Shown here: positions 1 through 13,095 of the stretch, piece after piece | Numbering within the stretch: the stretch's first letter is position 1 | How the letters are laid out: every line of letters starts with the position of its first letter | UHGV virus genome: UHGV-2113352 | DNA length: 15,144 nt | Source of the DNA: a virus | Direction: 5' to 3' (one strand) | Notes under the pieces: generated by a model | Told to the model about the DNA's origin: nothing | Database searches by the model: none | Seen by the model: the letters and a program-made list of their open reading frames with translations, nothing else | Position numbers and translations under genes: made by a program

Positions 1-202
1 GCTTACCGCTCATGGGCACCTCTCTTTAAGTCATCTTAAATGACTCTGAGGTGTCTGTTAAACCTGTGGCGATTCATCCCAGATGAACGCTACCAACTTC
101 GACAAGAAAAAACATTGCCTATCTTAGCAAAGTTCAAAGCTTGGCTCGATTCTGTATTCCAACTTATTGATTACAACTAAAAACTGAATGACAATCTGAA
201 AA

Positions 203-694
203 TTAAAGAAAAATATTCATAGCCAAGAATCCGACACCTCCAGCCAACACCAAGATACCTAAAACAACTATGGTTCGTAGCCCGCTTATCGATCTTTGCT
301 GAGACTCCGCCGCCGCCTCTAACTTGCTTTTCAATTCCGCTAATTGTTTAGCAATGCGGCTATCACTTGCTGTGCAGCCTTGTTCAAACTGCTCAGGTGT
401 TACAAACTTCAAGGCTGCAACCTCACGCCTTAGTTTCAACTGTTCATCTTTGATCTGGCCTAGAAGATCATTTAGTGACATAAGGCGACCGTCAAACTCT
501 TCAAATTTATTCGAGTTCTTCGTAAACAATTCAGCGTGTTCATAAGCTAGATTTACGAGCGTTGATTTCGCAGCCTCTATCTCAGTTCTTGCATCGCTGA
601 CGGCGCTCAACAGGCCATTAAACTGTGCCACTTGCGTCGATTGCTCTTCGAGTGAATCGATTACCCGGTGTAGTTTCTGTATGTCATTCACCAA
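203..694 (-). CDS. Small coiled-coil protein with C-terminal transmembrane anchor; third gene of the candidate defence operon
   Basis: 163-aa ORF. Charged, Leu-rich, heptad-like central region followed by a hydrophobic C-terminal segment (TIVVLGILVLAGGVGFLAMNIFL). Its start (TTG 692-694 or GTG 689-691) overlaps the stop of the upstream giant gene (TGA 688-690). A Shine-Dalgarno-like AAGGGG lies on the minus strand at about 700-705. No family recognised. Confidence 0.6.
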   Translation of the reverse strand: MVNDIQKLHRVIDSLEEQSTQVAQFNGLLSAVSDARTEIEAAKSTLVNLAYEHAELFTKNSNKFEEFDGRLMSLNDLLGQIKDEQLKLRREVAALKFVTPEQFEQGCTASDSRIAKQLAELKSKLEAAAESQQRSISGLRTIVVLGILVLAGGVGFLAMNIFL

Positions 695-3600
695 TTAATC
701 CCCTTGTATAGGCTGGTAAGTTTTTCAAGTCTAATTGCCAGTGGAGCTAACAAAGTGTGATAGGAGAACGGATCTCCTAGCTCTTCATTTACTTCCCCAA
801 GAAAATCCAAATCTTCAAATTTCTCATGGACCAAACGAGCAAAGCGACTTCGCGCATTTTCAGAAAATATTGGTTTTAACTGCATAGTTTTTCGGACCAG
901 CTCTAGTGCTTCATCCCTATTATCACTGATCAACCGATCAAATGACGATGCCATTCTTCGCTCTCCATCTGCATCATCAAACTCATCGGAAGCTAGTCGC
1001 AGCACACCACTCAAGTAGTTCAAGAATGCATTATCTTTGTATGACTCTAGGAATCGAGAAATCTGACCTCGTAGGATCGTCATCTTCTCGCTGCTTACTA
1101 AATGTTCCGAGCCCTCTTCTTCATCAGTTTCAAAAAAAACTGATGGCCATAACCTCACCGACACAGAATTCTCAGCCATATTGAGCAAAAGTTGGCTCGA
1201 CTTGTCGTGTCTGAAATAACCCTCTAACTTCTCCTTAAATTCTTTACCATCCATCCTGCCTTCAGCAAATAAACTACAGTGTTCATAAACATTCTTCTGT
1301 GACTGGCGGCGGTTGTAGACAAAATGGTCATAGGACCAAAGTAAAAGAACAAGAAAGATAAATTGCGATTTATCGATAGACCCTTTTCTCAGCTTGTCGC
1401 AGAGAATTTTGTAGTACTGGTTATCACTACTGAACACATCAGCGAGCTTAAACTCAGGATCATACTTTCTGACGGTATGCTCAATTTTCTTTTCCAGGCC
1501 TTCTTCCGATAGGCACTGGAACTCGACAGAGAGCGTTCCATTAAAAAAGTCTTCGATTACCCAGTCAGAGACAATACCTAATTGAGAAAGGCGGTAGATA
1601 GCCTTTTCCAATTTAAACTTTTCCGTACCAAACTGCCTGGCAGTAATGGTCACCGTGTTGTGTTCCTGATTGTACTTAAAAAATTCGTATACATTTGCCA
1701 TCAACTTGAACTCATCATTGATTGTGTCCAAGCCGTTTGTCATCAGGAATAGATTTGTGTTCAGGTCGCTATCGCGACTCAATGACTTCACGTACTCCTT
1801 CAGATCTTTGACGTTCGTGCTAGCGTCCCAAATCTTGTCGAGAATAGCTGAATTGGGCTCTTTTGTGAGAAGCACATAGCAATCTGCGGGTACTTCCTTG
1901 AATAGTTTTTTATCTCGCCCTGCCCTGCCAGCTTCCTGATACAAGGCCTCCATCGACCCAGGTATTCCGAAGTGAACCGTATAGGCAATATTTCCCTTAT
2001 TCACGCCCATTCCGAATGCCTTAGTGGCAGTAAGTAGGCGGTATTTATTTTCTTTAAAATCGTCTTGAACTTGGCGCTTATATCTATCGAAAGCCTCTCC
2101 CTGCAATCCACCCATTTTCGGAGCCGACCCCGAAAAATATCTAACATCCATCTTCAAGAGTGTTGATATTCGGCCCGCTAAGCTATAACACCCCTTAGCT
2201 CCGTTGACGGTAGAAGTGAATATGATCCCCGCCTTATTGCCGTCTTCCCCATCTGAATTCCATTTACCCTCCATTTCAGAAACAAGCTCGACGACTGCAT
2301 CACCTTTACGGCCTTTATCGTCAATGACGTGGAATGATAGTTCCTCGCGAGTGAAGTCCATGGGGGTACGGACAAAATCATCTGGGATATCAAACTCTGT
2401 TTGAATATCCTTTAGGACGTTAACTGATGCTGTTGCCGTTAGACCTATATAACTCGCACTGGGAGCAAACCGTTCGATTGTATTTGCCAGGTTCAGATAA
2501 GAAGTCCTGAAATCATGTCCCCACTCAGACAAACAGTGAGCTTCATCGATCACCGCGTAGGCAAATGAGAGATCTAGTCCGATAGCCAACATCTCTTTTC
2601 TAAACGCATGGGTTTGGAATCGCTCAGGCGATATAAAAACGAAGAAGTACTTACCACGTCCGAAATCTCTCTGAACTTTGGCCTTCTCTCCTGCCTTCAA
2701 ATCACTTGTAATAAAATTGCTTCGAGTGAAGCCGATGCTATCCAAATCTGCTTTCTGGTCATACATCAAACTTTTTATCGGGCACACGACAAAGCTAACG
2801 GCTGGTTGCAGGACCGCAGACAGCTGGTAACAAATCGACTTACCCGAACCTGTAGGCAGCAATCCTATTGTGCCGTTTTTCGAAAGTGCAGATCCTATGA
2901 TACCAACCTGCCCTTCCCTGAAATCTACATCCTCTAGGTATGGTAGAAACAGGTTGCTGAGGAAGTATCTCAGCGACTCTCTCTGCTCGCTGCCTGGGCT
3001 AAGATCTAGCTTGTAGGTAATGGGGTTACTACATGAAAGCTCGAAAAAGTCATAGTCAATCAATTGACTGGTTTCTATTGAAACAGCATCAGAATCTTCG
3101 AAGTTTCGATAGAAATCGAAGTAATCCGTACGTGAATATATGACGTCTTGGTTAACTTGAAAGGAATCGTCATAACGCTCCAGTAAGCTGAAGTCGATGA
3201 ATATATTTTCACCAGACCGTTCGCTCGGAAGCTCATCTGATTCGATCAGCGCAACCTCAATTCGCTTTTCTTCAATGCCGATGAGACGAAAGATATTCGA
3301 TAACAAATCGTTCAGGTCGTCCAGTGCCGCTTCAGCAAAATCAGTTCCATCACGATTGACTATGAATAGTTTTTTCAACTCCCCTAGTCTGATCTGACCG
3401 CGTTCAAGAAGCTCTAATAACAGTATCTGGAAACGCAACGCCGAGGTCAGCCTCAATCGCGAGTCAGTAACATCGACTCCATTTTCATAAGCCTCTTGGT
3501 AATTCAATAAAGAAATACCATTAGGAGGCGTTAGGACACCATTTCGCTCTAGACTATCAACGAGCTGAATTTGAGAAATAATCGAATTTATCTTACTGAT

Positions 3601-5364
3601 AAATGACTGATTCTCAGATGCCACTTCTCGAACAGTGAAACGAACTGTCTTCAGTCCCAAGGTTTCAGTAAACGCATCCCTCATCTCATCTAAATGCTGA
3701 GAATTTTGGTGCTGTTGACCATCTATCTCAATAATTAAACCAACTTGAGGAATGTAAAAATCTACCTGTCGGTTCTGGAATTGTTCAACGTAGACCTGAG
3801 TCATATCGTAAATCTGAACTTCAGGGAGCATTAGTTGTTTTACAAAAATGTACTCACCGAAATACTTTGGAATCAGCTCATCAAAAAACCTTTTCGCTGG
3901 GTAGTACCCAGAATGCTTGTTGCCTCGAATCAATCTATTCCAAAAAACTGGCTTATCTGACACAAGAGCCTGAGCTGATGTATTAAGACCGCTCTTCTCC
4001 AGTTCAATGCCAAATGCCTTCCTCAGTTTCCGCGAGGCTATTGTTGGCTTCCCTCTCTGAAGCATATTCTTAAGAACTTGAATTGCTGCAAATAGCTGTC
4101 CAGACGCCGCTTCAGACGAGATAGAATACTGGAGAAGATTGTGGAAAATGAAGTTATGGTTGGTTCTCGCGTAGTTAGCAGAAAACTTCTTGCTTACAAG
4201 CCTGCTACTAGACTTCGACCTGACATGTCTAGATAGTTCACTTTCGTCCGCCAGCGAGTCGATGATTGGGTTGTACAAATCTGAAAACAGTTGGTTATTG
4301 TGTTGTTGTTCTTGGCTGTCAGTGCCTAGCTCCAATCTATAGAGAGTTTTAACCAACGTAAAAATGTAAATACTTGAATTCGGAAAAGCTTGAGATAGAC
4401 AGCGTGTTATCTCATCAGTTGTAGCCCCCGAAGTTAATACGTCGTCAATGATCAGAAATGTCGGATTTGAATTAGCTTCTATTGAATCAAAATCGGCTTT
4501 ATAGGCACCTCTGACCTGGTGGAGTCTTTGTGCTGCAGTGCAATTAGTCGATTTATCTAATACGTGATCTTTCTCTAATATCTTAGGTTGGTAAGAAGCC
4601 CCTAAAGCAACAGCCAGCGATTTGCCCAAGGTATCTAATGCTTTATCGTCATCTTCAGCCCTAAGCTCAGCGTGACCTAACGCTCGAACAACTATATCTA
4701 TGGCTGGGAATGAAGGAGCTAGCTCAACAGTCTTGTTAACCCAGCGGCGAACAGAAGTATTCTTGTTATCCTTGAAAGACCAAACTTCCTGTTTGATACC
4801 ATCTAAATAGAATCCCAGATGAAGTTTATTCCCAGATTGTATTAACTCAGAACGTCCAGTTCTTGCGGAGCTCCGCGTCGAGTTTTTTCCAATAAGCTCG
4901 GAGAGACTGCTTATTCCCTTATGTGACGAATCGATCTCCGAGGCAGAACCCCAATCTACTGAGAAAAACTCAACTCCTGCATTGGAAGCAGCGTCTCGAT
5001 CTAGGTTACTATCTCCTAAATAAATTGACTCGTCGGCGCTAACACCGAAGTACTCGAGAATACGAGTAACGCCCTCAGGGCTCGGCTTATGCTGCGTTAC
5101 ATCATGGTAGGCTACTACATAATCAACAGTGATACTGAAGTGTTTGAGTAGCCCCTGAACGTAGTTCGAAGGCGCATTCGAGAAGATAGCAACCTTGATT
5201 CCAACCGACCGAGCCGTTGTAACAAGGCCGACAACGTCCTGATTGATGACACAACCATTAAAGTACCTGGGTATGTCTCTCCATCGGCCAGCTGACCGAA
5301 GTGGTTCGAGGCTTGATGTATCAATAAGCGTGTCATCAAGATCGAGGACGATGACCTTTATCAC
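688..5364 (-). CDS. Giant multidomain protein: N-terminal HAD-type phosphatase, phosphoribosyltransferase (PRTase), DUF559 (Vsr-like) endonuclease-like domain, RecQ-like SF2 helicase, and an unassigned ~400-aa C-terminal region
   Basis: 1558-aa uninterrupted ORF. HAD motif I LDLDDTL (aa 7-13) and motif IV GDSNLD (aa 117-122), nt about 4945-5364. PRTase PRPP-binding motif FLIIDDVLTSGATT (aa 303-316, nt 4417-4458). DUF559-type motif VDFYIPQVGLIIEIDGQQH followed by ..RD..L..G..RF (aa 534-577, nt about 3565-3957). RecQ-type helicase motifs: Walker A LPTGSGKS (aa 836-843, nt 2836-2859, checked against DNA), VIDEAHCLSEWGHDFR (aa 938-953, checked), LTATA (aa 975-979), YQEAGRAGRD (aa 1142-1151). GTG start at 5362-5364 overlaps the TGA stop of the upstream DprA-like gene (GTGA); SD-like AAGGTGG sits 6 nt upstream. 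Confidence 0.85.
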   Translation of the reverse strand: MIKVIVLDLDDTLIDTSSLEPLRSAGRWRDIPRYFNGCVINQDVVGLVTTARSVGIKVAIFSNAPSNYVQGLLKHFSITVDYVVAYHDVTQHKPSPEGVTRILEYFGVSADESIYLGDSNLDRDAASNAGVEFFSVDWGSASEIDSSHKGISSLSELIGKNSTRSSARTGRSELIQSGNKLHLGFYLDGIKQEVWSFKDNKNTSVRRWVNKTVELAPSFPAIDIVVRALGHAELRAEDDDKALDTLGKSLAVALGASYQPKILEKDHVLDKSTNCTAAQRLHQVRGAYKADFDSIEANSNPTFLIIDDVLTSGATTDEITRCLSQAFPNSSIYIFTLVKTLYRLELGTDSQEQQHNNQLFSDLYNPIIDSLADESELSRHVRSKSSSRLVSKKFSANYARTNHNFIFHNLLQYSISSEAASGQLFAAIQVLKNMLQRGKPTIASRKLRKAFGIELEKSGLNTSAQALVSDKPVFWNRLIRGNKHSGYYPAKRFFDELIPKYFGEYIFVKQLMLPEVQIYDMTQVYVEQFQNRQVDFYIPQVGLIIEIDGQQHQNSQHLDEMRDAFTETLGLKTVRFTVREVASENQSFISKINSIISQIQLVDSLERNGVLTPPNGISLLNYQEAYENGVDVTDSRLRLTSALRFQILLLELLERGQIRLGELKKLFIVNRDGTDFAEAALDDLNDLLSNIFRLIGIEEKRIEVALIESDELPSERSGENIFIDFSLLERYDDSFQVNQDVIYSRTDYFDFYRNFEDSDAVSIETSQLIDYDFFELSCSNPITYKLDLSPGSEQRESLRYFLSNLFLPYLEDVDFREGQVGIIGSALSKNGTIGLLPTGSGKSICYQLSAVLQPAVSFVVCPIKSLMYDQKADLDSIGFTRSNFITSDLKAGEKAKVQRDFGRGKYFFVFISPERFQTHAFRKEMLAIGLDLSFAYAVIDEAHCLSEWGHDFRTSYLNLANTIERFAPSASYIGLTATASVNVLKDIQTEFDIPDDFVRTPMDFTREELSFHVIDDKGRKGDAVVELVSEMEGKWNSDGEDGNKAGIIFTSTVNGAKGCYSLAGRISTLLKMDVRYFSGSAPKMGGLQGEAFDRYKRQVQDDFKENKYRLLTATKAFGMGVNKGNIAYTVHFGIPGSMEALYQEAGRAGRDKKLFKEVPADCYVLLTKEPNSAILDKIWDASTNVKDLKEYVKSLSRDSDLNTNLFLMTNGLDTINDEFKLMANVYEFFKYNQEHNTVTITARQFGTEKFKLEKAIYRLSQLGIVSDWVIEDFFNGTLSVEFQCLSEEGLEKKIEHTVRKYDPEFKLADVFSSDNQYYKILCDKLRKGSIDKSQFIFLVLLLWSYDHFVYNRRQSQKNVYEHCSLFAEGRMDGKEFKEKLEGYFRHDKSSQLLLNMAENSVSVRLWPSVFFETDEEEGSEHLVSSEKMTILRGQISRFLESYKDNAFLNYLSGVLRLASDEFDDADGERRMASSFDRLISDNRDEALELVRKTMQLKPIFSENARSRFARLVHEKFEDLDFLGEVNEELGDPFSYHTLLAPLAIRLEKLTSLYKGINW

Positions 5365-6347
5365 AGCAGGCCACCTTTTGCTTTCAATGACCCAAATGAA
5401 CTCGCGATATCTTCTAATTGAAGACGAATATCTTCATAAGATTCGCTCGTGTATGGTATCGCCCTCCCTTCGTTAACTAGCTGTTGAGTTCCTGAAATTG
5501 CCTTGATAGTAAGATCTGGATACTTAGCTTTATGTACGTCAGGAACGAAGACAGGACGCATCATAGAGATAGCAGATTTGACTGCGTGCATCGTCCCACC
5601 ATCTATCGAAGTTTCAATAGCAAAGACGGCAGTAGATAAACCTGCTTGTATCCTGTCTCGCTTAGCAAAGAACGCAGGTATTGCTTTGGTTCCTGGTGCA
5701 TTCTCTGCAACTAGAAGTCCGCCCTCGTCCAATATTTCCTTAGCGAGTTCCCGATTACTTGCGGGAGAAATAGACTCCACATCGACAAGAACAGAAATCG
5801 TTGGTGTTTTGGCATCTAATGCCGCGCGATGAGCAATTGTATCGATACCCAGTGCAAGTCCACTGACTATCGTGAAGCCATAAGTCGCAAACTTTTGAAT
5901 AGTTTTAATCGTTAGGGTTTCACCCTTGGGGGTATTTTCACGAGTTCCTACAACAGCTAATGAAAGCCTATTCTCTAAGAGATTTAGATTGCCTTTACAG
6001 TAAAGAAAGGGTGGAGGTTTTGGGAGATCATATAACGAAATTGGATAGTTTTTCGAACCGAAGATAACAATCTCAACTCCTTTATTTTTGAACGAATCAA
6101 TCTCTGTTTTTACTTCGTCCCTGAGAGCCTGGAAGTTCGCAGCGTCGAAGAAACTTTCGAGAGTTGCTCGAGATTTACCATTTGAGATTTTCAGATTGGA
6201 GGAGTTACGTACCAGTTCTTCGAGTGTTGACACTCCGCTGTACGCTGAAAACTTTAAGATTGACAGAACAGTTTCATCACCAACGCTCATTAACTTCTTG
6301 AGAACAAGAGCATCTACAATGTTCACTTCTCCCCCAAAGAACGACAA
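5361..6347 (-). CDS. DprA/Smf-like (SLOG superfamily) Rossmann-fold protein; first gene of the candidate defence operon
   Basis: 328-aa ORF. The central region (LAVVGTRENTPKGE..IVSGLALGIDTIAHRAAL..TISVLV..GGLLVAENAPGT..FFAKRDRIQAGLS..VFAIETSIDGGTMHAV) follows the conserved pattern of the DprA Rossmann domain (GxR.., SGLAxGID..AH..AL, FxxRNRiIaGLS, ..SG). The first start on the track is TTG at 6345-6347; the true start may be the downstream GTG (codon 8) or ATG (codon 20). Confidence 0.75.
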   Translation of the reverse strand: MSFFGGEVNIVDALVLKKLMSVGDETVLSILKFSAYSGVSTLEELVRNSSNLKISNGKSRATLESFFDAANFQALRDEVKTEIDSFKNKGVEIVIFGSKNYPISLYDLPKPPPFLYCKGNLNLLENRLSLAVVGTRENTPKGETLTIKTIQKFATYGFTIVSGLALGIDTIAHRAALDAKTPTISVLVDVESISPASNRELAKEILDEGGLLVAENAPGTKAIPAFFAKRDRIQAGLSTAVFAIETSIDGGTMHAVKSAISMMRPVFVPDVHKAKYPDLTIKAISGTQQLVNEGRAIPYTSESYEDIRLQLEDIASSFGSLKAKGGLL

Positions 6348-6460
6348 TTTTTAGTCCATTTACCATGCAGATTAATTGTATTCGACCAAGAACACAACAC
6401 AAACAAATATAGAATCGCCACGGATAATTTAGACACTTCCGAGCCGTTGATAATACTGGT

Positions 6461-7672
6461 TCAAACTAATGCAGCTATGCCTTTTACCTTGCTTAAAAGT
6501 TCAAGCTGTCGTGAATAAGGTTTTGCGCAATAGTAGGCTTTGATAATCTGCCCCGGTGTCGCATCGCCGGGGTCGAGTCCTTCCTCGCCCAAACACGCTA
6601 CTTTGACATTAAGACCGATACTGGTCAGTCGCCTGGCTGCGGCCATCGTGTTGCGTATAGCTTGCTTTTCACTATCCCACATCATAATCACATTACGTAA
6701 TCCACGCGCCTTGAGCGTCAGGAACGCGCCCAACTGATCTTCTGCATCCTGAGTGGTGTTACCAGATAGATGCATCCCGAACGTTCCTATCGGTTCCACG
6801 TAATCGCGTAATGTTTCTTCATCAAAAATAGCTCGTTTAACCCCCATAACATCGAACGCCCCCTCACAGACAACTACAGTCTGTTTGCCGACTGCATTGT
6901 GGCCGTTGTAGAGAAATTTACCCGATGCTGGCAGCTGCATGGGGAACAGATACCGGCGTTCTGCTGCACCGGTAATGTCACGACCCTGGAAGGTCTTCAT
7001 CACGCCATCCAGATCGTAAACCGGTATCAGTATTCGCATATCGAATACCTGTCCTTTGACCTGGTCTGTGTACGGATCGACGTATGCGTGCTTGCCTTCG
7101 ACGCAGTAACGCAGATCAAAGTATTTGGCCAGCTCCGGGGAAATCTGGCGCTCCACCAGATAATCAGGAAGACGACCGTCAATGGGGAGTTCGTAATGGC
7201 GCGGGAGAGCTACCGGTCCTTCCAGTTCAACCTTGCTGGCCAGTACGATCTCTTCCTTCTTCGGTGCCCATCCTTGTGAGATCAGCGCGTTCTGGACGTA
7301 CTCTTCAAAATCGCGACGAGATTTGCCGCTGTAATGCTTTAGGAAGACCAGCTTGTTGAACTGAATCTTTTCGGGATGATCACCTGCAAAGCATTTGCCG
7401 ACACCACTGGTCAGGTTGAAATAAACCTTCCAGTTTGAGCTGCCGCATACCGGACACTCTTTAATGTTGACCTCTCGTCCGCGAGTACTGACTCCACCAC
7501 GACGGTAGATGATCCCTTCCATATCGAGCCATTGCTCAAAATCCAGCTCGGTCAGTAATTCTTTCAAGTCGCTCACGTTCTTACCCCTATTTTTTGCAGG
7601 TAATATCTTGATAAGCCTCGGTATTTGAATATCATAAAGGCTCATGTGTTTTTTCTTTTGTGGTTTTGGCAA
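6461..7672 (-). CDS. DNA primase, phage T4 gp61-like (zinc ribbon plus TOPRIM)
   Basis: 403-aa ORF. Zinc-ribbon motif CPVCGSSNWKV..C..DH; the stretch ILIPVYDLDGVMKTFQGRDI..VVVCEGAFDVMGV resembles the T4 gp61 primase core (..IPIYN..G....FQGRAL..VYVLEGPIDSLF) as I remember it. Lies directly downstream of the helicase gene, as gene 61 follows gene 41 in T4. The track start is TTG 7670-7672; an in-frame ATG at 7643-7645 (MSLYDIQ..) is a plausible alternative start. Confidence 0.7.
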   Translation of the reverse strand: MPKPQKKKHMSLYDIQIPRLIKILPAKNRGKNVSDLKELLTELDFEQWLDMEGIIYRRGGVSTRGREVNIKECPVCGSSNWKVYFNLTSGVGKCFAGDHPEKIQFNKLVFLKHYSGKSRRDFEEYVQNALISQGWAPKKEEIVLASKVELEGPVALPRHYELPIDGRLPDYLVERQISPELAKYFDLRYCVEGKHAYVDPYTDQVKGQVFDMRILIPVYDLDGVMKTFQGRDITGAAERRYLFPMQLPASGKFLYNGHNAVGKQTVVVCEGAFDVMGVKRAIFDEETLRDYVEPIGTFGMHLSGNTTQDAEDQLGAFLTLKARGLRNVIMMWDSEKQAIRNTMAAARRLTSIGLNVKVACLGEEGLDPGDATPGQIIKAYYCAKPYSRQLELLSKVKGIAALV

Positions 7673-10159: not shown

Positions 10160-10897
10160 TTGGATAAGGCTAAATACTATGTTTACTGTCTCTATGATAC
10201 AGAAGACAAGATGAAAAGACCGTTTTACATAGGAAAAGGCAAATCGACTCGTTGTCTCGATCACATCAAGTATCCCGATGACTCTCCCAAATCCATGCGG
10301 ATCAAAGAACTTTTGGCTAATAAAAAATTAGGCATAGATATTCTTCGTCATGGTATGGATGAAACCACAGCCAAACTTGTTGAGGCGACATGCATCGACC
10401 TTATGGGGGTCGGAGAGCTTACGAATAAGGTACGAGGAAGTGGTTCCATGATGGGCAGAATATCACTGGACGCCTACCATCACTTAGTGCTGCAAGAGGA
10501 AACTGAAATTGCTCCTGAGCACGCCGGTCTTGCCTTCCTGCTAAACAGCACCTACAAGTCAGGAATGTCCGCTCTGGCATTATATGAAGCTACGCGTGGC
10601 GTATGGGCAAAGGTTCCAAGAGACGAGAATCTCAAATATGCCTACGCTACATATGGGGGCCTGATAATGGAAGTTTATCAGATTGAATGCTGGGTCAAAG
10701 CCGGTTCTCAGCAGTACTTTACAAGGGATATAGCTCTTGGCCCCGACACAAAACGTTATGAATTTGTTGGCAGAATAGCCGATGAGCATATTAGAAAACT
10801 GTATGTAGGCAAATTAATCAAGAAGCCACCAAGCTACGGCAGCCCTTTTGTGAAGGTTGGGGTGGTTAGGAATGAACATAGTGTTAGCGCGGCATAA
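10160..10897 (+). CDS. Hypothetical protein with an N-terminal GIY-YIG-like nuclease motif
   Basis: 245-aa ORF, the only long plus-strand gene in this region and divergent from the replication operon. N-terminus YYVYCLYD..KRPFYIGKGKSTRCLDH fits the GIY-(10-11)-YIG-..R..H pattern of GIY-YIG nucleases. The C-terminal ~150 aa is unassigned. Confidence 0.4.
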   Translation: MDKAKYYVYCLYDTEDKMKRPFYIGKGKSTRCLDHIKYPDDSPKSMRIKELLANKKLGIDILRHGMDETTAKLVEATCIDLMGVGELTNKVRGSGSMMGRISLDAYHHLVLQEETEIAPEHAGLAFLLNSTYKSGMSALALYEATRGVWAKVPRDENLKYAYATYGGLIMEVYQIECWVKAGSQQYFTRDIALGPDTKRYEFVGRIADEHIRKLYVGKLIKKPPSYGSPFVKVGVVRNEHSVSAA

Positions 10898-12296: not shown

Positions 12297-12566
12297 ATGT
12301 CCGCACTGAAAAAGCAGCGCATCGATTTGAGATTAACCGATGACGATAAAAGCATCATCGAGGAAGCTGCCGCAATGTCTAACCAGAGCATTACCCAGTT
12401 CATGGTTAGCAGTGCATCCGAACGTGCCGTGAAGGTGATAGAGCAACACCGTAGACTGGTTCTAAGTGAAGAGTCCTGGAATCTGGTTATGGATGCTATA
12501 AGCAATCCTCCGGCACCGAACGACAAGCTGAAACGAGCTGCCAATCGTCTGAAAAGCATGGAGTAA
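12297..12566 (+). CDS. DUF1778 (RHH-type) antitoxin of a GNAT toxin-antitoxin pair (TacA/AtaR-like)
   Basis: 89-aa ORF MSALKKQRIDLRLTDDDKSIIEEAAA..SNPPAPNDKLKRAANRLKSME closely matches the TacA/AtaR antitoxin family as I remember it. Sits 7 nt upstream of the GNAT toxin gene. AGGGGG SD before the ATG. Confidence 0.8.
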   Translation: MSALKKQRIDLRLTDDDKSIIEEAAAMSNQSITQFMVSSASERAVKVIEQHRRLVLSEESWNLVMDAISNPPAPNDKLKRAANRLKSME

Positions 12567-12573
12567 TTTACTC

Positions 12574-13095
12574 GTGAGCAATACGACGATCGAGATTTTC
12601 TCTGGAGAGAACGATTATGATCTAAACGGTTTTGATTGCGGCGAAGAGTCACTAAACGCATTTTTGACCAACCACTTAAAAAGACAGCATGAAGGAAAAA
12701 TTCTTCGCGCTTATGTGCTTTGCACTAAAGAAGAAATACCAAAGGTATTAGGTTATTACACTTTGTCAGGCAGCTGCTTTGAGAAAGAAACCTTACCTTC
12801 AAAGAGTCAGCAAAAGAAAGTGCCTTATCGGAATGTCCCAAGTATCACTTTAGGCAGACTGGCTTTGGACAAATCTCTTCAAGGTCAGGGGCTTGGCTCA
12901 ATGCTTGTAACTCACGCAATGCGTGTTGTGTACAATGCATCTCTTGCGGTAGGCATTCATGGGCTTTTCGTTGAGGCGTTGAACGATAAAGCCAGGGCGT
13001 TTTATAAAAGTTTGGGCTTTATCCAGCTGGTTGGTAACAACGATCGTTCTTTGTTCTATCCAACAAAATCTATCGAAAAATTGTTCGAAGAATAA
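12574..13095 (+). CDS. GNAT-family acetyltransferase toxin (TacT/AtaT-like, aminoacyl-tRNA acetylating)
   Basis: 173-aa ORF with GTG start. Acetyl-CoA binding motif QGQGLGSMLV; size and the upstream DUF1778 antitoxin are typical of TacAT/AtaRT/KacAT modules. Confidence 0.8.
   Translation: MSNTTIEIFSGENDYDLNGFDCGEESLNAFLTNHLKRQHEGKILRAYVLCTKEEIPKVLGYYTLSGSCFEKETLPSKSQQKKVPYRNVPSITLGRLALDKSLQGQGLGSMLVTHAMRVVYNASLAVGIHGLFVEALNDKARAFYKSLGFIQLVGNNDRSLFYPTKSIEKLFEE

What the first reader, a model, noticed from the sequence alone, without database searches (positions are those of the whole stretch)
4330..5364. HAD phosphatase and PRTase modules in tandem at the N-terminus suggest nucleotide or nucleoside chemistry
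PRTases form or cleave the N-glycosidic bond between a base and PRPP-derived ribose 5-phosphate, and HAD enzymes commonly dephosphorylate sugar phosphates or nucleotides. SLOG/LOG-type folds (the DprA-like partner belongs to that superfamily) include nucleotide-binding and phosphoribohydrolase enzymes. Three nucleotide-processing modules in one operon point to synthesis or destruction of a nucleotide-derived molecule, either a signal or depletion of a pool, rather than plain DNA restriction. The motifs are seen directly; the mechanism is inference.
Basis: inference. Interest (0 to 1): 0.7.

Follow-up and report, generated by a model that had tools for sequence, protein, structure and literature searches.

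The report
ShosT-like toxin module fused to helicase
The HAD-plus-PRTase tandem is real and has the two-domain layout of the known anti-phage toxin ShosT, but here it is fused to a nuclease-helicase protein inside a rare, mobile three-gene cassette that very probably serves phage defence.

Summary
Observation confirmed. Window 4330-5364 (-) encodes aa 1-345 of a 1558-aa protein (688-5364). It holds a canonical HAD hydrolase domain (D8/D10/T12, S62, K93, D118/D122) followed by a type I PRTase domain (D307 D308 ... T311 G313).

This tandem is not new. It is the domain layout of ShosT, the toxin of the ShosTA toxin-antitoxin anti-phage system, whose structures were published in 2025-26. The upstream DprA-like gene is a clear ShosA homologue (37% identity) and lies in the same gene order.

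Three things are new:
- The ShosT-like module is fused to a Vsr-like endonuclease (DUF559), a RecQ-family helicase and a family-specific C-terminal domain.
- A third, translationally coupled gene encodes a tail-anchored coiled-coil protein.
- The helicase "backbone" plus that small protein occurs by itself in Bacteroidota and other phyla, often beside defence genes.

Across relatives, the PRTase and helicase motifs are kept wherever those regions are present. The HAD motifs are lost in two relatives and the domain is missing in a third, so HAD looks accessory.

The 6.3-kb cassette is rare (7 of 5426 complete E. coli genomes). It moves between phage-plasmids, conjugative plasmids and chromosomal defence islands.

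Verdict: a new variant of a known kind (a ShosTA/PsyrTA hybrid).

The parts
78..6397 (.). Mobile 6.3-kb cassette (three genes) inserted in a variable slot of an SSU5-like phage-plasmid
   Evidence: This block is 97.6% identical to an E. coli chromosome (L089) and a K. quasipneumoniae conjugative plasmid (L090). Homology to a sister phage-plasmid (L008) resumes only at 6412. In sister plasmids the slot holds a yeh fimbrial operon plus Phd/Doc.
5361..6347 (-). DprA-like gene, ShosA-type putative antitoxin (328 aa)
   Evidence: Pfam DNA_processg_A 1.9e-53. PADLOC ShosA 6.8e-68 and PsyrA 1.5e-28. 37% identical to ShosA of Peduovirus P2_4C9, E 4e-42. Its TGA stop overlaps the GTG start of the next gene (GTGA).
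688..5364 (-). 1558-aa fusion protein: HAD - PRTase - linker - DUF559 - middle region - RecQ-like helicase - C-terminal domain
   Evidence: The exact protein is found on at least 24 public contigs. PGAP annotates it as 'RecQ family ATP-dependent DNA helicase' with the same boundaries.
4885..5364 (-). HAD-IA hydrolase domain (aa 1-160), canonical motifs I-IV
   Evidence: Pfam HAD_2 2.9e-19. NCBIfam PpaX pyrophosphatase 1.3e-11 and phosphoglycolate phosphatase 3.3e-12. D8, D10, T12, K93, G117, D118 and D122 are invariant in a 13-sequence alignment with ShosT-class proteins.
4330..4872 (-). Type I PRTase domain (aa 165-345), ComF/ShosT-like
   Evidence: PRPP loop FLIIDDVLTSGATT. PADLOC ShosT 1.3e-7. 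AF2 model pLDDT 82.7. Foldseek top hits are ComF 7P0H, ShosT 8ZVC/D/B and APRTs. The motif is kept in 9 of 9 family members.
3835..4329 (-). Linker (aa 346-510). From about aa 392 (SANY..TNHNF, ILKNxLQRGKPT motifs) it belongs to the helicase 'backbone'.
   Evidence: Backbone-only relatives start at the residue that aligns with about aa 392 (query residues 226-228 of A2).
3550..3834 (-). DUF559 / Vsr-like endonuclease domain (aa 511-605); D535, E546, D548, H552
   Evidence: Pfam DUF559 1.4e-9 and 2.4e-10. PADLOC mREase_II 2.3e-9. The motif is kept in 8 of 9 family members.
2935..3549 (-). Family-specific middle region (aa 606-810), no known domain
   Evidence: Conserved in full-length and backbone-only relatives. 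No Pfam hit.
1870..2934 (-). RecQ-family SF2 helicase core (aa 811-1165); GSGKS (K842), DEAH (940-943), QEAGRAGR
   Evidence: PDB RecQ 4TMU 4.1e-41. TIGR00614 recQ_fam 223.6 bits against a cut-off of 219.8. PADLOC PsyrT 6.2e-61. Motifs are invariant in the family wherever the region is present.
691..1869 (-). Family-specific C-terminal domain (aa 1166-1558)
   Evidence: Covered only by PADLOC model PDLC02868 ('DpdF', aa 469-1471). Conserved in all relatives. No RQC or HRDC match.
203..691 (-). Small coiled-coil protein with a C-terminal transmembrane helix (162 aa); conserved third gene
   Evidence: Its GTG start overlaps the TGA stop of the big gene. A hydrophobic tail starts at about aa 141. 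Conserved after the big gene in Marinobacterium and an Oceanospirillaceae MAG (E 3e-24 and 8e-34). Homologous to the small gene that follows backbone-only helicases (HMM E 1.1e-6, reciprocal 5.6e-8, hhalign probability 94%).

Best explanation
The region encodes the effector module of a toxin-antitoxin-type anti-phage cassette that is a hybrid of two known systems, ShosTA and PsyrTA/RqlHI.

Proposed mechanism, step by step:
- aa 1-345 form a ShosT-like unit. A ComF/ShosT-type PRTase uses PRPP to phosphoribosylate a still unknown acceptor, and this activity is the toxic one (inferred from ShosT and RqlH).
- The HAD domain in front of it most likely removes a phosphate-containing product. PPi is the reported substrate for ShosT; a 5'-phosphate of the product is the alternative. 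This would pull the reaction forward. It is an accessory function.
- The upstream, translationally coupled DprA-like protein (ShosA homologue) is the antitoxin. By analogy with ShosA it would work through ssDNA and RecA binding rather than by binding the toxin.
- Unlike ShosT, the module is covalently attached to a Vsr-like endonuclease, a RecQ-family helicase and a private C-terminal domain.
- That 'backbone' has its own tail-anchored coiled-coil partner. It exists as an independent two-gene module in other phyla and probably senses or attacks foreign or replicating DNA.

Shown here: domain identities, motif conservation, gene linkage, mobility and defence-island context.
Inferred: toxicity, antitoxin role, HAD substrate, trigger, and how the helicase couples to the PRTase.
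For: Architecture:
- HAD plus PRTase tandem.
- An AF2 model of aa 1-420 has ShosT structures 8ZVC/8ZVD/8ZVB as the top three PDB matches. The lower-ranked matches are single-domain-length HAD alignments, whereas the ShosT alignments run about 400-426 columns across both domains (E 2.4e-10).
- The PRTase-only model matches ComF and ShosT best.
- A profile of the family plus ShosT-class proteins finds ShosT in the PDB at E 4.4e-6.

Partner and gene order:
- The partner matches PADLOC ShosA at 6.8e-68 and is 37% identical to ShosA.
- The order DprA then toxin is the same as in the P2_4C9 shosA-shosT locus.
- GTGA start/stop overlaps link all three genes.

Published function of the known relatives:
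- The ShosT PRTase binds PRPP and is required for toxicity. A mutation in the PPase domain reduces toxicity only marginally. Purine metabolism is perturbed (PMC11961720).
- RqlH toxicity maps to its PRTase and is countered by the DprA-like RqlI (PMC4670107).

Conservation:
- PRTase motifs are kept in 9 of 9 family members, and helicase motifs in every member where that region is present.
- HAD is kept in 6 of 9, degenerate in 2 and absent in 1. This matches the 'PRTase essential, hydrolase accessory' pattern.

Linkage:
- The same three genes occur in Marinobacterium weihaiense and an Oceanospirillaceae MAG, where the large protein is about 57% identical over the region compared (aa 165-810).

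Mobility and context:
- The cassette is rare: 12 of 72,556 plasmids and 7 of 5426 E. coli genomes.
- It moves as one block between replicon types.
- It lies between MzaABC plus nucleases and a type I R-M system on an E. coli chromosome, and between Hhe and a type I R-M system on a Klebsiella plasmid.
- Some copies are disrupted by IS1 or IS5, and some remnants keep only DprA.
Against: - No experiment exists on this protein.
- Sequence similarity to the validated ShosT is remote. BLASTP gives 20% identity over the HAD region only (E 1e-4), and phmmer against the PDB does not find ShosT.
- The two-domain AF2 model is modest (pLDDT 66), and its TM-score to ShosT is 0.28 because the domain orientation differs.
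- The HAD domain here has canonical catalytic aspartates. In validated ShosT, motif I (AVIFSIADVV) and motif IV (GRSQED) are degenerate. The biochemical role of the two N-terminal domains may therefore differ.
- The PRTase acceptor is unknown even for ShosT.
- The nuclease-helicase part could be the real effector, with the PRTase as a regulator.
- On the phage-plasmid the cassette sits next to replication genes (primase, DnaB-like), so a role in plasmid DNA metabolism is not excluded.
Confidence: 0.65

Rival explanations
1. DNA-directed PRTase. Because the PRTase is tethered to a DNA translocase and nuclease, its acceptor is DNA itself or a base exposed on ssDNA. Examples would be phosphoribosylation of bases, abasic sites or ends. 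The canonical HAD domain then trims the 5'-phosphate of the adduct. Toxicity and defence come from modified or damaged DNA, not from changes in nucleotide pools.
For: - Helicase and PRTase have been fused at least twice independently and in opposite orders: RqlH has the helicase N-terminal and the PRTase C-terminal (PMC4670107), and here the order is reversed.
- Russell and Mulvey speculated that RqlH adds PRPP to DNA.
- ShosT bound none of the free purines tested.
- The closest solved PRTase fold is ComF, a DNA-uptake protein. The SF2 helicase, ComF-type PRTase and DprA triad parallels the competence machinery (PMC5512222).
- ShosT and RqlH cause DNA damage, duplications and SOS induction.
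- The HAD domain here keeps a full phosphatase catalytic set, unlike the ShosT hydrolase domain.
Against: - No DNA-modifying PRTase has been demonstrated.
- ShosT is toxic without any helicase.
- ShosT metabolomics point to purine metabolism.
- HAD-PRTase modules are also fused to non-DNA domains such as TPR, MORN, HEAT, Sel1 and Hsp70.
Confidence: 0.15
2. A DNA-metabolism accessory of the mobile element, for recombination, repair or replication restart, and not an immune system. DprA loads RecA, the RecQ-like helicase-nuclease processes intermediates, and the PRTase/HAD domains have a regulatory or salvage role.
For: - The cassette lies directly beside the phage-plasmid primase and DnaB-like helicase genes.
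- PGAP names the products RecQ-family helicase and DprA.
- ShosA interacts with RecA and recombination proteins (PMC12961424 abstract; PMC11961720).
Against: - The cassette is absent from most sister phage-plasmids, which carry fimbrial and Phd/Doc genes in the same slot.
- It travels as a unit into chromosomal and plasmid defence islands.
- It is rare and often disrupted by IS elements.
- The helicase lacks RQC and HRDC domains and scores far below the RecQ equivalog cut-off (240 bits against 640).
Confidence: 0.08
3. A signalling system. The PRTase plus HAD synthesise a nucleotide-derived second messenger. This is sensed or degraded by the SLOG-fold DprA-like protein, which then controls the nuclease-helicase.
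For: - DprA belongs to the SLOG superfamily, which includes nucleotide-binding proteins (established classification, from my own knowledge).
- The combination of PRTase and phosphatase could in principle build a nucleoside or nucleotide product (inference).
Against: - The partner matches DprA/ShosA models over almost their full length.
- ShosA is reported to act through ssDNA and RecA binding, with no ligand described (PMC12961424).
- No messenger is known for ShosTA or PsyrTA.
- The backbone-only relatives work without PRTase or DprA.
Confidence: 0.05

Closest known systems
ShosTA (ShosT toxin plus ShosA antitoxin; E. coli APEC O1 and P2-like phages; PDB 8ZVB/8ZVC/8ZVD)
   Same: - The toxin has an N-terminal HAD-fold hydrolase and a C-terminal PRTase (ShosT 1-164 and 165-424; PMC11961720).
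- A DprA-like gene lies immediately upstream on the same strand.
- The partner is 37% identical to ShosA.
- The PRTase DD motif is present.
- ShosT structures are the best two-domain PDB match.
   Different: - Here the module is the first 345-390 residues of a 1558-aa protein that also carries DUF559, a RecQ-like helicase and a C-terminal domain, and a third gene follows.
- Toxin sequence similarity is remote (20% identity in the HAD region, E 1e-4).
- The ShosT hydrolase domain lacks the DxDxT and GDxxxD motifs, while this one has them all.
- The ShosT PRPP loop reads VIDDFCTEGN; here it is the canonical IIDDVLTSGATT.
PsyrTA / RqlHI (RecQ-like helicase-PRTase toxin plus DprA-like antitoxin)
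   Same: - A RecQ-family helicase and a PRTase in one polypeptide, paired with a DprA-like protein.
- PADLOC PsyrT 6.2e-61 on the helicase core and PsyrA 1.5e-28 on the partner.
- RqlH toxicity maps to the PRTase (PMC4670107).
   Different: - The domain order is reversed: RqlH has the helicase N-terminal and the PRTase at aa 509-690 of 698.
- RqlH has no HAD, no DUF559 and no long C-terminal domain.
- rqlI lies downstream of rqlH, whereas here DprA is upstream.
- RqlHI has no third gene.
Backbone family: DUF559-RecQ-like-CTD proteins of about 1100-1200 aa (PADLOC model PDLC02868, labelled 'DpdF') with a downstream tail-anchored coiled-coil gene
   Same: - Window aa ~392-1558 align end to end with these proteins.
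- The small downstream gene is homologous.
- Several of these loci sit beside defence genes: GmrSD, DruH-like, Tiamat TmtA, HEC-06 and SoFic-like.
   Different: - They have no HAD-PRTase module and no DprA neighbour.
- They occur mainly in Bacteroidota, and also in Gastranaerophilales, Succinivibrionaceae, Polynucleobacter and Cedecea.
- I found no description of this module in the literature searched.
Competence triad ComFA (helicase) / ComFC (PRTase) / DprA
   Same: - The same three protein types. ComF (7P0H) is the best solved match of the PRTase domain.
- NCBIfam GntX/ComF matches at 2.8e-7.
- The parallel was noted by Iyer et al. 2017 (PMC5512222).
   Different: - The helicase family differs (RecQ-like, not ComFA).
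- The context is a mobile cassette in defence islands, not a competence operon.
- HAD, DUF559 and the tail-anchored protein have no counterpart in the competence machinery.

Membership tests
ShosTA | Toxin built of an N-terminal HAD-fold hydrolase domain followed by a PRTase domain | tested here: met
   Pfam HAD_2 2.9e-19 plus the PRTase motif. Foldseek matches ShosT 8ZVC/D/B over about 400-426 columns. The PRTase-only model matches ShosT at E 4.7e-6.
ShosTA | Adjacent DprA-like antitoxin gene (ShosA), upstream on the same strand | tested here: met
   PADLOC ShosA 6.8e-68. 37% identity to ShosA, E 4e-42. Same gene order as the P2_4C9 shosA-shosT locus. GTGA overlap.
ShosTA | Toxin is a stand-alone two-domain protein of about 424 aa in a two-gene system | tested here: not met
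   The toxin candidate is 1558 aa with four further regions, and a conserved third gene follows it.
ShosTA | Toxin sequence belongs to the ShosT family | tested here: inconclusive
   PADLOC ShosT matches at E 1.3e-7 but only over aa 240-349. BLASTP against ShosT gives 20% identity and E 1e-4 in the HAD region only. A profile finds ShosT at 4.4e-6. phmmer does not find it.
ShosTA | PRPP-binding acidic pair (D331/D332 in ShosT) required for toxicity | tested here: met
   D307/D308 are present and invariant in the alignments. The requirement for toxicity itself cannot be tested here.
ShosTA | Toxin kills cells, the DprA-like protein rescues them, and the system protects against phage | not testable with these tools
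   Needs expression and plaque assays.
PsyrTA / RqlHI | RecQ-like helicase and PRTase in one polypeptide with a DprA-like partner | tested here: met
   PADLOC PsyrT 6.2e-61 and PsyrA 1.5e-28. RecQ PDB match 4.1e-41.
PsyrTA / RqlHI | Architecture with the helicase N-terminal and the PRTase C-terminal (about 690-700 aa), antitoxin gene downstream | tested here: not met
   Here the PRTase is at aa 165-345, the helicase at aa 811-1165, the protein is 1558 aa and DprA is upstream. The RqlH layout is taken from PMC4670107.
Dpd system (DpdF) | Meets the NCBIfam DpdF equivalog and lies in a dpd gene cluster | tested here: not met
   NF041063 DpdF scores 139.4 bits against a cut-off of 550. There are no dpd genes in the window or around the PDLC02868-type protein of Cedecea.
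RecQ (bona fide) | RecQ equivalog score and RQC/HRDC domains | tested here: not met
   TIGR01389 scores 240 bits against 640. Only the broad recQ_fam subfamily model passes (223.6 against 219.8). No RQC or HRDC hit.
HAD superfamily phosphatase | Motifs I-IV: DxDxT, S/T, K, (G)DxxxD | tested here: met
   D8, D10, T12, S62, K93, D118 and D122. Pfam score is above the cut-off.
Type I PRTase | PRPP-binding loop and PRTase fold | tested here: met
   The motif is at aa 303-316. The AF2 model (pLDDT 82.7) matches ComF, ShosT, APRT and HGPRT. The window protein's own Pfam score is below the cut-off, but relative P0016 passes it.

The most novel reading that the evidence does not exclude
The window shows a merger of two immune modules: an undescribed, phylogenetically wide two-gene system and a ShosTA pair.
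- The undescribed system consists of a Vsr-like nuclease-RecQ-like helicase-CTD protein plus a tail-anchored coiled-coil membrane protein. PADLOC currently mislabels the large protein as 'DpdF'.
- Covalent tethering of the PRTase to a DNA translocase would mean that the long-sought acceptor of ShosT/RqlH-type PRTases is DNA, or a DNA-bound base. That would be a new kind of nucleic-acid phosphoribosylation used in immunity.
Probability: 0.15. Interest if true: 0.8.

Novelty: new variant of a known kind. Interest (0 to 1): 0.5.

Why it matters
- The physiological substrate of the PRTase toxins of ShosTA and PsyrTA/RqlHI is still unknown (PMC11961720 discussion).
- This protein is a natural construct in which a ShosT-type module with fully canonical HAD and PRTase catalytic sets is wired to a nuclease-helicase. 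It links ShosTA and PsyrTA into one continuum and suggests the PRTase works at or near DNA.
- It also exposes a conserved helicase plus tail-anchored-protein pair that may be a defence system in its own right.
- It shows that SSU5-like phage-plasmids of E. coli carry exchangeable defence cargo in the slot beside their replication genes.
- Practically, annotation pipelines call this protein 'RecQ family helicase' or 'HAD-IA hydrolase', and PADLOC's best match for it is a 'DpdF' model (PDLC02868). All three labels are misleading.

Tried and rejected
- Sequence search of the PDB with the full protein and with aa 1-420 did not retrieve ShosT. Only fold comparison and a family profile did.
- I took the 424-aa HAD-PRTase protein P0063 for ShosT. 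It is not: it gave no PDB ShosT hit and its residue numbering differs. The real ShosT sequence was recovered from the Peduovirus P2_4C9 locus.
- The strong PADLOC 'DpdF' hit (7.7e-113) was followed up and rejected as evidence for a Dpd system. Model PDLC02868 is essentially the Cedecea neteri backbone protein (2359 bits), its neighbours are not dpd genes, and the NCBIfam DpdF cut-off is missed by far.
- The promoter/terminator scan of 1-6700 was uninformative: 11 promoter-like sites against 11.2 expected.
Counts of relatives are therefore not exhaustive, and many hits (L027-L088) are unrelated DUF559 proteins.
- Literature searches for the fusion or the backbone module found nothing specific. 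The library lacks most subscription journals, so absence is weak evidence.
- The first AF2 model (aa 1-420) was only moderate (pLDDT 66), and the linker after aa 339 is disordered.


Full report
**Observation**

The finding covers window 4330-5364 on the minus strand. This is exactly codons 1-345 of a 4677-nt ORF (688-5364, GTG start, 1558 aa). PGAP annotates the same boundaries in a near-identical plasmid.

Residues 1-160 are a HAD-IA hydrolase domain:
- Pfam HAD_2 gives E 3.6e-17 for the whole protein and 2.9e-19 for the fragment, well above the gathering score.
- All four catalytic motifs are readable in the sequence: DLDDT (D8, D10, T12), S62, K93 and GDSNLD (D118, D122).

Residues 165-345 carry the type I PRTase PRPP loop FLIIDDVLTSGATT.
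- The window protein's own Pfam PRTase scores are below threshold.
- Independent support comes from the PADLOC ShosT model (1.3e-7) and NCBIfam GntX/ComF (2.8e-7).
- One relative (P0016) passes the Pfam cut-off.
- An AlphaFold model of aa 165-350 (pLDDT 82.7, pTM 0.81) has as best solved matches H. pylori ComF (7P0H, E 5.7e-7), ShosT (8ZVC/8ZVD/8ZVB) and adenine/hypoxanthine PRTases.

**What the tandem is**

Two recent papers solved the structure of ShosT, the toxin of the ShosTA toxin-antitoxin anti-phage system. ShosT has an N-terminal Rossmann-fold hydrolase domain of the HAD-type pyrophosphatase fold (residues 1-164) and a C-terminal PRTase domain (165-424).
- ShosT binds PRPP, and D331A/D332A abolishes toxicity.
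- A mutation in the hydrolase domain reduces toxicity only marginally.
- ShosT expression perturbs purine metabolism and causes filamentation and DNA duplications.
- The DprA-like ShosA neutralises it without binding it, through ssDNA and RecA binding (PMC11961720, PMC12961424).

An AlphaFold model of window aa 1-420 is moderate overall (pLDDT 66), with domain cores around 80. Its top three PDB matches are the ShosT structures, with alignments of about 400-426 columns across both domains. The lower-ranked matches are single-domain-length HAD hydrolase alignments (E 2.4e-10).

The upstream gene (5361-6347) matches the PADLOC ShosA model at 6.8e-68.

I recovered a bona fide shosA-shosT locus from Peduovirus P2_4C9. 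Its 424-aa product carries the published residues N53, K54, R56, K92 and D331/D332.
- The window DprA is 37% identical to that ShosA (E 4e-42).
- The gene order, DprA then toxin, is the same.

The relation of the toxin modules is remote at sequence level:
- BLASTP gives 20% identity over the HAD region only, E 1e-4.
- phmmer against the PDB misses ShosT.
- A family profile finds it at 4.4e-6.

There is one notable difference. Validated ShosT lacks the HAD nucleophile motifs: motif I reads AVIFSIADVV and motif IV reads GRSQED. The window protein, and most of the several thousand HAD-PRTase relatives found in the exhaustive search, keep canonical DxDxT.

**What else is in the protein and operon**

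After the ShosT-like module come four further regions:
- A linker (aa 346-510).
- A DUF559/Vsr-like endonuclease domain (aa 511-605; Pfam 1.4e-9; D535, E546, D548 and H552 intact).
- A family-specific middle region (aa 606-810).
- A RecQ-family SF2 helicase core (aa 811-1165), with PDB RecQ 4.1e-41, a pass on the recQ_fam subfamily cut-off, and PADLOC PsyrT 6.2e-61. A 390-residue C-terminal domain with no known relatives follows.

This combination of a RecQ-like helicase, a PRTase and a DprA-like partner is that of PsyrTA/RqlHI. There, toxicity also maps to the PRTase (PMC4670107). RqlH, however, has the opposite domain order, its antitoxin is downstream, and it has no HAD or DUF559. The window protein is therefore a hybrid of the two known DprA/PRTase systems, not a member of either as defined.

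All three genes of the cassette are linked by GTGA start/stop overlaps with Shine-Dalgarno-like sequences upstream. The third gene (203-691) encodes a 162-aa coiled-coil protein with a C-terminal transmembrane helix.

**Relatives**

The exhaustive HMMER search with aa 1-420 returned 4561 hits. They fall into three groups:
- Full-length relatives of about 1560 aa at 36-50% identity.
- Many two-domain HAD-PRTase proteins of about 400-425 aa (the ShosT class).
- HAD-PRTase modules fused to TPR, MORN, Sel1, HEAT, Hsp70-like or even DprA domains.

The module therefore behaves as a portable effector.

Motif conservation in nine aligned members of the large family:

| Element | Status |
|---|---|
| PRTase motifs | kept in 9 of 9 |
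| Helicase motifs I, II, VI | kept wherever the region is present |
| DUF559 motif | kept in 8 of 9 |
| HAD motifs | kept in 6 of 9; degenerate in all four motifs in 2; domain absent in 1 |

The PRTase is not a pseudoenzyme. The HAD domain is dispensable in evolution, which matches the minor effect of the ShosT hydrolase-domain mutant.

A scan of one genome per species plus my own ORF/phmmer analysis gave two results:
- The same three genes, in the same order, occur in Marinobacterium weihaiense and an Oceanospirillaceae MAG. The small protein is conserved there (E 3e-24 and 8e-34).
- A 'backbone' protein of about 1100-1200 aa, equivalent to window aa ~392-1558, occurs without HAD-PRTase and without DprA. 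It is found in Bacteroidota, Gastranaerophilales, Succinivibrionaceae, Polynucleobacter and Cedecea neteri.

Almost every backbone gene is followed by a small coiled-coil gene that overlaps its stop codon or starts within about 10 nt of it, and most of these carry a C-terminal TM helix. These small proteins are homologous to the window's third gene (HMM E 1.1e-6, best of 435 ORFs; reciprocal 5.6e-8; hhalign probability 94%).

The Cedecea backbone protein is in effect the PADLOC 'DpdF' model PDLC02868 (2359 bits). Its neighbours are not dpd genes, and the NCBIfam DpdF cut-off is missed by far (139 bits against 550), so the Dpd label is rejected.

Several backbone loci lie next to defence genes: GmrSD, DruH-like, Tiamat TmtA, HEC-06/DUF262 and SoFic-like.

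The most economical history is that a helicase plus tail-anchored-protein module captured a ShosTA pair in a gammaproteobacterial lineage.

**Genomic context**

The window is an SSU5/pHCM2-like phage-plasmid of E. coli. It is 98.3% identical to pLAO18 over its full length, and 87% identical to phage SSU5 over the replication, partition and tail-fibre part only.

The cassette (window 78-6397) fills a slot between the primase gene and the ligase-side genes. In most sister plasmids this slot holds a yeh-type fimbrial operon and Phd/Doc.

The cassette is rare:
- 12 of 72,556 plasmids.
- 7 of 5426 complete E. coli genomes, three of them chromosomal.

It moves as one block at 97.6-97.9% identity:
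- On an E. coli chromosome it lies between MzaABC plus two nucleases and an IS1 plus a type I R-M system.
- On a Klebsiella conjugative plasmid it lies between Hhe and a type I R-M system.

Some copies are split by IS1 or IS5, and some remnants keep only DprA, with or without the HAD end. That pattern is expected for a costly toxin with a protective antitoxin.

**Mechanism**

Best-supported model (confidence about 0.65): a toxin-antitoxin-type defence cassette.
- The PRPP-dependent PRTase is the toxic activity.
- The HAD domain helps by removing a phosphate-containing product.
- The DprA-like protein is the antitoxin.
- The nuclease-helicase, together with its membrane-anchored partner, contributes DNA sensing or attack.

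Only domain identity, conservation, linkage and context are shown here. Toxicity, rescue, substrate and trigger are inferred from ShosT and RqlH.

The main rival (about 0.15) is that tethering to a helicase means the acceptor is DNA. The points in its favour are:
- Helicase and PRTase have been fused twice independently.
- ShosT bound none of the purines tested.
- The closest fold relative, ComF, is a DNA-uptake protein.
- ShosT and RqlH produce DNA-damage phenotypes.

A plasmid DNA-metabolism role and a second-messenger role are less likely, for the reasons given under the rival explanations.

**Verdict**

However, the tandem is the known ShosT layout, and the DprA partner is an antitoxin-type ssDNA/RecA-binding protein rather than a third nucleotide-processing enzyme.

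The new content is the fusion architecture, the canonical HAD catalytic set, the conserved third gene and the stand-alone backbone module. I rate it a new variant of a known kind, with interest 0.5.

Noticed in passing
window 12297-13095 (+): A TacA/TacT-like toxin-antitoxin pair: an 89-aa DUF1778 antitoxin (12297-12566) followed by a 173-aa GNAT acetyltransferase (12574-13095). It is conserved in the sister phage-plasmids.
   Followed up: partly
window 1-6411 versus L008 (pEC21Z137-115K): The slot between the primase gene and the ligase-side genes of SSU5-like phage-plasmids is a cargo hotspot. Most E. coli relatives carry a yeh-type fimbrial operon plus Phd/Doc there instead of the cassette.
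   Followed up: partly
L011-L026 (for example L014 1946-5861, L026 5851-9757): A stand-alone two-gene module: a DUF559-RecQ-like-CTD protein (about 1100-1200 aa) plus a small coiled-coil protein, usually tail-anchored, whose gene overlaps or directly abuts the helicase stop codon. It occurs in Bacteroidota and other phyla, often next to defence genes. PADLOC labels the large protein 'DpdF', apparently wrongly.
   Followed up: partly
L091 1199-2473 (ShosT of Peduovirus P2_4C9): The experimentally studied ShosT lacks the canonical HAD catalytic motifs. Motif I reads AVIFSIADVV instead of DxDxT, and motif IV reads GRSQED. Most HAD-PRTase relatives, including the window protein, keep them. The reported Mg2+-independent PPase activity of ShosT may therefore not represent the wider family.
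   Followed up: partly
proteins P0034, P0061, P0088, P0102, P0121, P0145, P0030, P0077 (one search hits): The HAD-PRTase module is fused to very different partners: an Hsp70-like ATPase, TPR, Sel1, MORN, HEAT repeats, and in one case a weak, sub-threshold DprA-like region (P0077). This suggests a portable effector coupled to many sensors.
   Followed up: partly
proteins P0058, P0076, P0081, P0084, P0095, P0111, P0126, P0137, P0150, P0157, P0159: A subclass of HAD-PRTase proteins of about 404-416 aa ends in a conserved Cys-rich motif (CPxCG...FWGC.GYP.C) that looks like a zinc ribbon of the topoisomerase type. This hints at nucleic-acid binding by stand-alone ShosT-like toxins.
   Followed up: no
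plasmid hits H32, H33, H49, H39-H41: Some copies of the cassette are interrupted by IS1B or IS5 inside the large gene. Three Klebsiella plasmids keep only the DprA gene, with or without the HAD-encoding end. This is consistent with decay of a toxin while the antitoxin is retained.
   Followed up: no
window 10160-10897 (+): A 245-aa ORF between the replication and partition genes has a weak LEM-3-type GIY-YIG nuclease match in the precomputed Pfam hits of identical loci. It was not examined further.
   Followed up: no
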